This document shows positions 346 through 462 of a stretch of 64,000 bases of DNA, piece by piece. The stretch lies in the IMG/VR virus record IMGVR_UViG_3300042934_000631, positions 4,412-68,411 of that record. One strand, given 5' to 3'. The notes beneath the pieces are model-generated. The model saw only the letters and a program-made list of their open reading frames with translations, made no database searches and was not told the origin of the DNA. Every line of letters starts with the position of its first letter. The stretch's first letter is position 1. The position numbers and the translations under genes were made by a program. Source of the stretch: a virus.

Positions 346-462
346 ATGAAAACAATCGCAAAATTTATGTCCGTAGCTTCTTTTTCCGTAGCATTCGCAT
401 TCTTCGCAGTTATGAAGGGCGGCATCGGCGAGATTGACGTACCGGCCGACTTTCGCAAGTAA
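346..462 (+). CDS. AgrD-like propeptide, copy 1 (MKTIAKFMSVASFSVAFAFFAVMKGGIGEIDVPADFRK)
   Basis: 38-aa ORF absent from the ORF track; AAGGGG RBS; paralogous to the peptide immediately downstream of agrB; amphipathic leader and EIxxP tail. Confidence 0.85.
   Translation: MKTIAKFMSVASFSVAFAFFAVMKGGIGEIDVPADFRK

What the first reader, a model, noticed from the sequence alone, without database searches (positions are those of the whole stretch)
346..462. Orphan AgrD-like peptide gene placed at the end of the lysis operon
Seen: a 38-aa paralogue of the cassette peptide, 37 bp after the endolysin stop and before the terminator, about 18 kb from agrB. The ORF track misses it. Inference: it is co-transcribed with the late/lysis genes, so signal output would scale with the number of cells completing lytic infection. 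That is the expected design for a phage census signal.
Basis: partly seen in the sequence, partly recalled or inferred. Interest (0 to 1): 0.88.

Follow-up and report, generated by a model that had tools for sequence, protein, structure and literature searches.

The report
Extra signal-peptide gene ending phage lysis operon
A soil Paenibacillus phage that carries its own stripped-down agr-type peptide-signalling kit keeps an extra copy of the signal-precursor gene as the last gene of its cell-bursting operon, so signal production is probably tied to the lytic cycle, though no expression data exist yet.

Summary
Window 346-462 (+) is a 38-aa ORF with ATG and an AGGGG ribosome site. It lies 37 nt after the stop of a glucosaminidase endolysin and 8 nt before a strong terminator.

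It is 63% identical to the peptide gene that overlaps agrB by ATGA (18517-18636) and 95% identical to a third copy (22250-22366). Differences between copies are mostly synonymous.

The lysin-peptide-terminator junction recurs in a circular 69-kb Paenibacillus planticolens contig and in a prophage of another Paenibacillus genome. A decayed remnant lies in a fourth genome. A P. elgii provirus keeps its extra copy between terminase and portal instead. Five other cassette-bearing elements have no extra copy.

The peptides miss the AgrD models and have no Cys or Ser nucleophile. Lys-x-x-x-Gly and a downstream Pro are invariant.

Most likely this is a late-operon precursor gene for the phage's own AgrB. 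The signal would be read by a kinase-less AgrC-like membrane protein and a receiver-less LytTR regulator. Co-transcription, processing and any census role are inferred, not shown; no RNA data were available.

Verdict: new variant of phage-borne agr signalling.

The parts
1..308 (+). 3' part of the glucosaminidase endolysin gene (whole gene: G000:C1:4084/4105-4719). It is the last enzyme of the holin / Peptidase_C1 / lysin module, which lies just upstream of the window.
   Evidence: Pfam PF01832 71.9 bits on the full protein; holin PF05105 123 bits; Peptidase_C1 PF00112 76.8 bits.
309..345 (+). 37-nt leader with AGGGG ribosome-binding site (331-335). The 13-nt stretch at 315-327 is repeated exactly before the third copy (22216-22228).
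   Evidence: exact copies only at these two places. Two further matches with 2 mismatches are within chance.
346..462 (+). The finding: 38-aa orphan precursor-peptide gene (copy 1). It has a hydrophobic N-terminal helix, an invariant K24-G-G-I-G28 stretch, then an E-I-x-x-P33-x-D-F-R-K tail.
471..520 (+). Intrinsic terminator: 18-bp hairpin at 471-512 plus a T-run. It closes the lysis transcription unit.
   Evidence: The hairpin base and T-run are kept in 4 of 4 related junctions, with no compensatory changes.
17331..17993 (+). 220-aa polytopic membrane protein, first gene of the cassette. It is a candidate kinase-less AgrC-type sensor.
   Evidence: No Pfam hit; PHROG 15604 at 159 bits. The Atlas model aligns to the N-terminal part of HATPase_c_5 kinases at TM 0.63-0.65 (a lead only).
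17990..18520 (+). AgrB-family peptidase (176 aa).
   Evidence: Pfam PF04647 58.3 bits against a cut-off of 23. SGGFH...C is invariant in 7 of 7 homologues, at H75 and C82.
18517..18636 (+). Cassette precursor peptide (39 aa, copy 2). Its start overlaps the agrB stop (ATGA).
18647..19036 (+). Stand-alone LytTR DNA-binding protein (129 aa, no receiver domain).
   Evidence: Pfam PF04397 29.5 bits against a cut-off of 22.6.
22250..22366 (+).
   Evidence: The syntenic copy in G001 is confirmed.

Best explanation
Window 346-462 is a translated extra copy of the phage's AgrD-like precursor gene. It is carried as the last cistron of the lysis operon (holin, papain-type peptidase, glucosaminidase, peptide, terminator).

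It is made whenever the late/lysis unit is transcribed. Its hydrophobic N-terminal helix anchors it in the membrane. The phage's own AgrB, expressed earlier from the primase operon, cuts it near G28/E29 and removes the E-I-x-x-P-x-D-F tail. AgrB has the conserved His75/Cys82 pair.

The released peptide ends in K-G-G-I-G. It is either linear or closed by Lys24 onto the new C-terminus. It adds to the same signal pool as the cassette copy and the third copy.

The signal is read by the kinase-less AgrC-like membrane protein, which controls the stand-alone LytTR regulator in the manner of a LytTR regulatory system.

Shown: the gene, its conservation, its position and the family of its neighbours. 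Inferred: co-transcription, AgrB processing, peptide chemistry, the receptor, and any effect on the phage's life-cycle decision.
For: (1) The gene is real.
- It is 95% and 63% identical to the two paralogues.
- P1 versus P3 has 11 synonymous and 2 non-synonymous differences (dN/dS 0.04). P1 versus its positional orthologues has 8/4 (0.12) and 7/9 (0.30).
- ATG and the AGGGG site are kept in all copies.
- K24, G28 and P33 are invariant in 13 of 13 family members.

(2) Operon position.
- It is on the same strand as the lysis genes, with a 37-nt gap.
- There is no terminator-like site between the lysin stop and the ATG, and no sigma-70-like site in window 1-345.
- Between the holin start and the terminator, only chance-level weak sites were found.
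- The strongest terminator of the region directly follows the peptide gene.

(3) Conservation of the junction.
- G001 (P. planticolens circular contig): lysin, 40 nt, peptide, terminator.
- G029 prophage: holin, C1 peptidase, lysin, 56 nt, peptide, terminator.
- G027: remnant of the lysin 3' end, a 5'-truncated peptide gene and the terminator.
- By synonymous distance, the post-lysin copies are closer to each other (dS 0.36-0.40) than P1 is to P3 (0.65).
- In G003 the extra copy sits 25 nt after terL and 18 nt before the next late gene. That leaves no room for its own signals.

(4) Link to AgrB.
- The paralogue is translationally coupled to AgrB in every cassette examined.
- In hosts G001 and G029 the only AgrB genes are those of the phage elements. 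G027, which holds only the remnant, has none.

(5) Receptor side.
- The LytTR protein passes Pfam.
- The membrane protein's model resembles the sensor part of AgrC-type kinases.
- Hargreaves et al. 2014 (PMC3901668, passages read) describe the same kind of kinase-less membrane proteins beside AgrB in phages Davies, Emery and Abouo.
Against: - No transcript, ribosome or peptide data exist. No RNA run was listed for this DNA, which is silence, not evidence.
- The peptide does not match Pfam AgrD or NCBIfam models at E<=1. A six-frame search of the genome with PF05931 finds nothing at E<=10.
- It has no Cys or Ser where AgrD needs its ring nucleophile. AgrB-type cyclisation as known cannot occur, and processing by AgrB is an assumption.
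- Five of 8 other cassette-bearing elements work without any orphan copy. The late copy is therefore dispensable for the system.
- The third copy lies among replication-region genes. That weakens a specifically 'late' logic.
- The synonymous/non-synonymous contrast does not by itself choose the strand. The antisense frame that shares wobble positions is open in 10 of 15 family genes, including all 5 close orphan copies. The sense strand is preferred because that antisense frame is broken in 5 of 15 genes, including the window's own cassette copy, and because of the start codon, ribosome site, orientation and AgrB coupling.
- A promoter inside the 3' end of the lysin gene for a non-sigma-70 factor cannot be excluded. 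The phage encodes a sigma-like protein (weak PHROG sigma-factor match).
Confidence: 0.55

Rival explanations
1. It is a redundant dosage copy with no timing meaning. The leader-plus-ORF unit was duplicated to operon ends, which tolerate insertions. It is kept similar by gene conversion, and its place after the lysin is historical accident.
For: - P1 and P3 share an exact 13-nt leader, and 0 of 69 nt differ in codons 1-23 against 13 of 45 nt in codons 24-38 (Fisher p 1.7e-6). That looks like a conversion tract.
- Five of 8 other cassette-bearing elements have none.
Against: - The post-lysin position with its terminator is kept across three elements whose lysin genes differ at 33-42% of synonymous codons.
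- Its coding sequence stays under purifying selection.
- Every orphan position found lies inside a lytic-cycle operon, on the sense strand, with its own ribosome site.
Confidence: 0.2
2. It is a moron-type gene with its own promoter inside the end of the lysin gene. It is expressed in the carrier (prophage or plasmid) state rather than with the late genes, so that lysogens broadcast the signal.
For: - The region after the endolysin is where phiCDHM1 carries its whole agr cassette, on the opposite strand.
- The element is a circular extrachromosomal contig in P. planticolens, so a long-lived carrier state exists.
Against: - No sigma-70-like site lies in window 1-345.
- Only 37-56 nt separate the lysin stop from the start codon in the three elements.
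- In G003 the orphan is wedged between terL and the next late gene, with gaps of 25 and 18 nt.
Confidence: 0.1
3. It is a membrane-active lysis accessory peptide that acts without AgrB, for example by modulating the holin or damaging the membrane. This would be like the cytolytic N-terminal leader of staphylococcal AgrD (recalled, not checked here).
For: - It lies in the lysis module.
- Residues 7-23 are strongly hydrophobic (mean Kyte-Doolittle 2.07) and the tail is polar (-0.52).
Against: - Near-identical copies sit after replication-region and terminase genes.
- The most conserved part is the K-x-x-x-G / P processing region shared with the AgrB-coupled copy, not the helix.
- The related SI92 element (G002) and the G001 contig have different holins or lysin tails, whether or not the peptide is present.
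Confidence: 0.08
4. It is not a gene on this strand. The conservation would reflect the antisense ORF (339-458, minus strand) or a non-coding element.
For: The wobble-sharing antisense frame is open in all 5 close orphan copies, and it also changes by only 2 residues between P1 and P3.
Against: - That antisense frame has stops in 5 of 15 family genes, including the window's own cassette copy.
- It starts with TTG inside the terminator region and opposes every neighbouring gene.
- The sense frame has ATG, a ribosome site and AgrB coupling in the paralogue.
Confidence: 0.03

Closest known systems
AgrD/AgrB of the staphylococcal-type agr system (agrBDCA)
   Same: - A short precursor with a hydrophobic or amphipathic N-terminal helix, a short core, and a charged C-terminal tail containing a conserved Pro.
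- In the cassette paralogue, the gene is coupled to an AgrB-family peptidase with the conserved His/Cys pair.
   Different: - No match to the AgrD models.
- No Cys or Ser nucleophile. An invariant Lys sits in about that position.
- This copy is 17.6 kb from agrB.
- There is no AgrC kinase domain and no AgrA receiver domain in the cassette.
agr3 locus of Clostridioides difficile phage phiCDHM1 (Hargreaves et al. 2014, PMC3901668; record HG531805)
   Same: - A phage-borne agr signalling set.
- The agrD gene lies directly beside the endolysin gene.
- Transcription of agrB and agrC in lytic and lysogenic cultures is reported there (passages read).
   Different: - phiCDHM1 has one agrD, next to agrB and a full AgrC kinase. 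They are on the strand opposite to the lysis genes, so they are not part of the lysis operon.
- Its annotated AgrD carries a Ser in the core.
- It has no orphan copies.
Kinase-less cassettes of Brevibacillus phages Abouo, Davies and Emery, and of B. laterosporus plasmid p1821L02
   Same: - In Abouo and p1821L02 (read) the gene order is the same: membrane protein, AgrB, small Cys-less peptide with K-x-x-x-G then P-E/V-x-P, then a 123-124-aa fourth gene that looks LytTR-like by position and size (not scanned against Pfam).
- Their AgrB proteins are 38-40% identical to the window's; those of Davies and Emery are 29-33%. For Davies and Emery only the AgrB matches and the description in PMC3901668 were seen.
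- Hargreaves et al. had already noted these cassettes.
   Different: - In Abouo the cassette lies by the integrase.
- No extra peptide copies could be assessed, because the peptide profile does not detect even Abouo gp46.
- hhalign links the two peptide families only weakly (probability 32%).
Orphan precursor copy after terL in a Paenibacillus elgii provirus (IMG/VR record reached as G003).
   Same: - Same cassette and same K-G-G-I-G core.
- The extra copy is embedded in a late operon.
   Different: - Its position is between terminase and portal, not after the lysin.
- That copy is more diverged (50% identity to P1).
Arbitrium (AimP/AimR/AimX) of SPbeta-group phages (recalled, functional analogy only)
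   Same: A phage-encoded secreted peptide that could let phages gauge earlier infections.
   Different: - It uses an unrelated peptide, protease and receptor, with a single precursor gene beside its receptor.
- No homology was tested here.
LytTR regulatory systems HdrRM/BrsRM of Streptococcus mutans (Zou et al. 2018, PMC6193735, abstract read)
   Same: A receiver-less LytTR regulator is paired with a transmembrane protein in one operon.
   Different: - Here the pair brackets an AgrB and a precursor peptide.
- The membrane protein looks like an AgrC sensor module.
- An inhibitory interaction has not been tested.

Membership tests
AgrD (Pfam PF05931; NCBIfam cyclic lactone autoinducer peptide) | Match to the family model | tested here: not met
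   There were 0 families at E<=1 for all three peptides in Pfam and NCBIfam. A six-frame PF05931 search of the whole 68-kb genome gave 0 matches at E<=10.
AgrD (Pfam PF05931; NCBIfam cyclic lactone autoinducer peptide) | Cys or Ser ring nucleophile a few residues before the AgrB cleavage site | tested here: not met
   The peptide contains no Cys, and no Ser or Thr in residues 15-38. Lys24 is invariant in 13 of 13 aligned members.
AgrD (Pfam PF05931; NCBIfam cyclic lactone autoinducer peptide) | Gene adjacent to, and co-expressed with, agrB | tested here: not met
   Copy 1 lies 17.6 kb from agrB. Only its 63%-identical paralogue overlaps the agrB stop.
AgrD (Pfam PF05931; NCBIfam cyclic lactone autoinducer peptide) | Architecture: N-terminal membrane helix, short core, charged C-terminal tail with a conserved Pro | tested here: met
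   Residues 7-23 have mean hydropathy 2.07 and the tail -0.52. P33 is invariant and E29 nearly so.
AgrD (Pfam PF05931; NCBIfam cyclic lactone autoinducer peptide) | Cleaved and exported by AgrB | not testable with these tools
   This needs biochemistry or LC-MS. The complex prediction gave no verdict (see Tried and rejected).
AgrB (Pfam PF04647), for the partner enzyme | Model match above the cut-off, and conserved His/Cys pair | tested here: met
   The score is 58.3 bits against a cut-off of 23. H75 and C82 are invariant in 7 of 7 homologues. That these two residues are the catalytic pair is recalled from work on S. aureus AgrB.
Lysis (late) operon of the phage | Same strand, no terminator or promoter between it and the lysin, shared terminator | tested here: met
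   The junction is conserved in G001 and G029.
Lysis (late) operon of the phage | A single transcript spans the lysin and the peptide during the late phase | not testable with these tools
   No RNA holder was listed for this DNA.
LytTR regulatory system (membrane inhibitor plus LytTR regulator) | Receiver-less LytTR regulator in an operon with a transmembrane protein | tested here: met
   LytTR scores 29.5 bits against 22.6, in a 129-aa protein. The 220-aa membrane protein lies in the same gene string.
LytTR regulatory system (membrane inhibitor plus LytTR regulator) | The membrane protein inhibits the regulator, and direct repeats lie upstream of an autoregulated promoter | not tested
   The cassette follows the primase gene with an 18-nt gap. 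No search for repeats was made.

The most novel reading that the evidence does not exclude
These Paenibacillus phage-plasmids run a private, kinase-free agr-type channel. Its precursor genes are deliberately spread over early (primase operon), middle (replication-region operon) and late (lysis or terminase operon) transcription units.

The post-lysin copy would make a burst of signal proportional to the number of cells that reach lysis. Neighbouring carriers or newly infected cells would read it through the AgrC-like sensor and LytTR regulator to set lysis versus carriage.

The signal itself would be a new chemotype: an AgrB product closed by Lys as a lactam, or left linear, instead of a thiolactone or lactone.
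Probability: 0.2. Interest if true: 0.85.

Novelty: new variant of a known kind. Interest (0 to 1): 0.62.

Why it matters
Phage-borne agr genes have been known since phiCDHM1, but their purpose is still open. No case has been described in which a phage wires a signal-precursor gene into its lysis operon.

If the late copy is expressed as its position implies, signal output is mechanically coupled to lytic development. That would make it the first agr-type analogue of an arbitrium-like census.

The system is also easy to test. The hosts are soil Paenibacillus. In two hosts the only AgrB is the phage's own. The three precursor copies can be deleted one by one.

The invariant Lys in place of Cys/Ser also asks whether AgrB enzymes can make lactam or linear signals. 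That would widen the known chemistry of this peptide class.

Tried and rejected
- **Public phage and plasmid DNA.** blastn of window 1-1100 and 17300-19100 against phages, and of 1-600 against plasmids, gave no match. tblastn of the peptide against phages gave no match.
- **Viral and metagenome scans with peptide profiles.** The A1 profile in viral contigs found none. A3 and A5 in metagenome contigs found none. A5 in viral contigs found none. Only A3 in viral contigs found the P. elgii provirus.
- **P0008.** The contigs that encode P0008 could not be reached. P0008 is a 41-aa variant of copy 1 on 2 JGI/IMG contigs.
- **Complex prediction.** The job with AgrB (7-row alignment) and copy 1 (13-row alignment) gave no verdict: score 0.02 against a mark of 0.32, and controls were not run. 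It counts neither for nor against binding.
- **Sequencing runs.** One DNA holder was listed, a soil metagenome that may be the source. No RNA holder was listed, and read laying was not used.
- **Solved structures.** No structure related to AgrB by sequence was found at a meaningful E-value.
- **Profile comparisons.** hhalign of the peptide family against the phiCDHM1 AgrD gave nothing (probability 2.8%). Against Abouo gp46 it was only weak (32%).
- **Shared leader as a promoter.** The idea that the shared 13-nt leader is a general promoter motif was rejected. Exact copies occur only before copies 1 and 3.
- **Terminator covariation.** There are 0 compensatory pairs in 15, because the hairpin is too conserved to test.
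- **Literature.** The search 'orphan agrD' found 0 papers. The searches 'AgrB + macrolactam' (8 papers), 'AgrB/AgrD/lactam/autoinducing peptide' (116 papers, 15 listed) and 'phage/autoinducing peptide/endolysin/agrD/late' (15 papers, 12 listed) showed no title or abstract start describing a Lys-closed AgrD product or an agrD gene in a lysis operon. Only listings and abstract starts were seen for those papers, and supplements were closed.

Full report
**What is there**

The window is bases 4412-68411 of a 68,411-bp virus record with 50% G+C. The record comes from a soil metagenome.

At 346-462 (+) lies a 38-codon ORF with an ATG start. AGGGG sits 10 nt upstream of the ATG.

The gene before it ends at 308. 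Read from the whole genome, that gene is a 204/211-aa glucosaminidase (PF01832, 71.9 bits). It is preceded, with overlapping or abutting starts, by a papain-family peptidase (PF00112, 76.8 bits) and a holin (PF05105, 123 bits).

Eight bases after the peptide's stop begins an 18-bp hairpin with a T-run (dG -34.8 kcal/mol, z -7.65).

Between the holin start and this terminator, the scans find only weak sites at chance level. No sigma-70-like site lies in window 1-345. By sequence logic, the peptide gene is therefore the last cistron of the lysis unit. No expression data could be obtained: one DNA run was listed and no RNA holder.

**It is a gene and a paralogue**

A motif scan of all six frames finds three copies:
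- 346-462, copy 1.
- 18517-18636, copy 2. Its ATG overlaps the TGA of agrB.
- 22250-22366, copy 3.

Copy 1 is 95% identical to copy 3 and 63% identical to copy 2.

Copies 1 and 3 differ at 13 nucleotides, all in codons 24-38. Ten of the changed codons are synonymous and two are not. The first 69 nt and a 13-nt leader are identical.

Against its positional orthologues in two other elements, dN/dS is 0.12 and 0.30.

One caveat applies. The antisense frame that shares wobble positions is open in 10 of 15 family genes, including all five close orphan copies. The substitution pattern alone therefore does not pick the strand. The sense strand is chosen for these reasons:
- That antisense frame is broken in 5 of 15 genes, among them the window's own cassette copy.
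- The sense frame has ATG and a ribosome site.
- It runs with all its neighbours.
- In the paralogue it is coupled to agrB.

The source pipeline had already called this protein.

**Relatives**

A profile of the three peptides finds 6 proteins at E<=0.001 among 1.84 billion representatives. Genome searches find the family in 4 of 37 genomes of the host genus group, 6 of 136 of the family and 7 of 401 sampled from the order. It is a rare family.

Nine elements carry the four-gene cassette of membrane protein, AgrB, peptide and LytTR protein:

| Element | Copies found |
|---|---|
| Window phage (G000) | after lysin, cassette, after the PHROG 6883 gene |
| G001, 69,145-bp contig labelled circular, Paenibacillus planticolens | after lysin, cassette, after the PHROG 6883 gene |
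| G029, prophage 1 | cassette, after lysin |
| G003, P. elgii provirus | cassette, plus a copy 25 nt after terL and 18 nt before the next late gene |
| G002 (Paenibacillus sp. SI92) | cassette only |
| G029, prophage 2 | cassette only |
| G138 | cassette only |
| G139 | cassette only |
| G112 | cassette only |

- In G029 prophage 1, the order is again holin, C1 peptidase, glucosaminidase, 56 nt, peptide, terminator.
- In G002, the positional lysin has a different C-terminal half and no peptide after it.
- G027 has no AgrB at all. It still holds a remnant made of the lysin 3' end, a 5'-truncated peptide gene and the terminator, next to integrase fragments.

Excluding the window phage, the post-lysin copy occurs in 2 of 8 elements. 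A late-operon copy of any kind occurs in 3 of 8, and no orphan in 5 of 8.

The terminator base and T-run are kept in all 4 junctions.

By synonymous distance, post-lysin copies of different elements (dS 0.36-0.40) are closer to each other than copy 1 is to copy 3 (0.65). The post-lysin gene is thus an old, retained locus rather than a recent accident.

**What kind of peptide**

AgrB is clear, at 58.3 bits against a cut-off of 23. Its SGGFH...C motif is invariant in 7 of 7 homologues.

The peptides match no AgrD model and have no Cys. Copies 1 and 3 also have no Ser or Thr in the second half.

In a 13-member alignment, M1, A5, K24, G28 and P33 are invariant and E29 nearly so. The same K-x-x-x-G followed by a Pro-containing tail appears in more distant peptides:
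- cassettes of G112, G138 and G139;
- Brevibacillus phage Abouo gp46;
- an unannotated ORF of B. laterosporus plasmid p1821L02.

The architecture is AgrD-like: a hydrophobic helix, a short core and a charged tail with Pro. However, two defining features of AgrD were tested and not met. I therefore file it as an AgrD-like precursor by context, not as a member of the AgrD family.

From recalled knowledge of AgrB, it forms a thioester with the new C-terminus, and a side chain five residues upstream resolves it. On that basis the invariant Lys could close a lactam, or water could release a linear peptide. This is inference. The exact cleavage site is uncertain by one residue, because the Pro lies one position closer to the Lys than I recall for the staphylococcal Cys-Pro spacing.

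**Receptor side**

The first cassette gene encodes a 220-aa polytopic membrane protein with no Pfam hit (PHROG 15604, 159 bits). Its Atlas model aligns over about 190-200 residues with the N-terminal part of HATPase_c_5 (AgrC-type) kinases at TM 0.63-0.65 (a lead only).

The last cassette gene encodes a 129-aa LytTR protein without a receiver domain. This pair resembles the LytTR regulatory systems of S. mutans, which combine a transmembrane inhibitor with a LytTR regulator (PMC6193735, abstract).

Hargreaves et al. 2014 had already noted kinase-less membrane proteins beside AgrB and a putative AgrD in phages Davies, Emery and Abouo (PMC3901668, passages).

In hosts G001 and G029, the only AgrB genes are those of the elements themselves. 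There, the channel is therefore private to the phage.

**How it most likely works**

The cassette follows the primase gene by 18 nt, so AgrB and the sensor are made with the replication genes. Copy 3 rides on the operon that holds the PHROG 6883 gene, and copy 1 rides on the lysis operon. Each adds precursor to the same AgrB.

The K-G-G-I-G core is identical in all copies of the close clade. The consistent differences between cassette-type and orphan-type copies lie in the tail that would be removed. The copies therefore most likely feed one signal pool. The late copy couples part of the output to cells that reach the lysis stage.

The spread over several operons and the absence of orphans in five relatives fit a dosage or timing refinement better than an essential late-only device.

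**Novelty**

Phage-borne agr genes are known, from phiCDHM1 and the Brevibacillus phages. My searches found no description of a precursor gene wired into a lysis or packaging operon, or of multi-copy dispersed precursors in a phage. For most papers only listings and abstract starts were seen.

I found the terL copy independently before reading that note.

I rate this finding a new variant of a known kind.

**Not done**
- No transcript, translation or peptide evidence was obtained.
- Supplements of papers were closed.

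Noticed in passing
L034:3350-4099 (G000:C1:3350-4099, just upstream of the window): A papain-family cysteine peptidase (PF00112, 76.8 bits) sits between the holin and the glucosaminidase, with overlapping starts. The same gene is in the G029 prophage lysis module but not in G001. This is an unusual lysis-cassette enzyme. Whether it cuts cell wall or helps trim the precursor peptide is open.
   Followed up: partly
window 346-414 and 22250-22318: Synonymous divergence is suppressed in codons 1-23 of the orphan copies: 1 of 19, 2 of 21 and 3 of 19 identical-residue codons differ between elements. The figure is 25-38% in codons 24-38 and 33-42% in the adjacent lysin gene. Gene conversion or a nucleotide-level constraint could explain it; this is unexplained.
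   Followed up: partly
window 22390-22614: A 74-aa two-helix membrane ORF lies directly after copy 3. It has only sub-threshold holin-like hits (PF07332, E 0.0013, below the cut-off). A similar 70-aa ORF follows copy 3 in G001, after an extra 77-aa ORF.
   Followed up: no
L032 (G027:C153:25000-38000), about 6747-6912 on the minus strand: A decayed remnant of the lysin 3' end, a 5'-truncated peptide gene and the terminator lies beside integrase fragments. The genome has no AgrB.
   Followed up: partly
L033 (G002:C11:110841-110963, minus strand): A distant 40-aa K-x-x-x-G / P-K-V-P-K-E-L peptide ORF lies after a 405-aa ORF (function not checked). No AgrB was seen among the same-strand ORFs listed. 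It may be another orphan of a wider Cys-less family.
   Followed up: no
L045:3009-3128 (CP033462.1, B. laterosporus plasmid p1821L02): An unannotated 39-aa Cys-less peptide ORF lies between the annotated AgrB and a gene that looks LytTR-like by position and size. The four-gene cassette is the same, on a 60-kb circular non-mobilizable plasmid.
   Followed up: partly
L038:26176-28262 (HG531805, phage phiCDHM1): As annotated, the phiCDHM1 AgrD (37 aa) has no Cys but has a Ser in the core. The agrC-agrB-agrD cassette lies convergent to, and directly after, the endolysin gene.
   Followed up: no
G001:C10 (contig labelled circular, 69,145 bp) versus G029:C1 (9.08-Mb contig): Close relatives of one element occur as a contig labelled circular in one host and inside a 9.08-Mb chromosomal contig in another. 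This may mean phage-plasmid and integrated lifestyles within the group.
   Followed up: no
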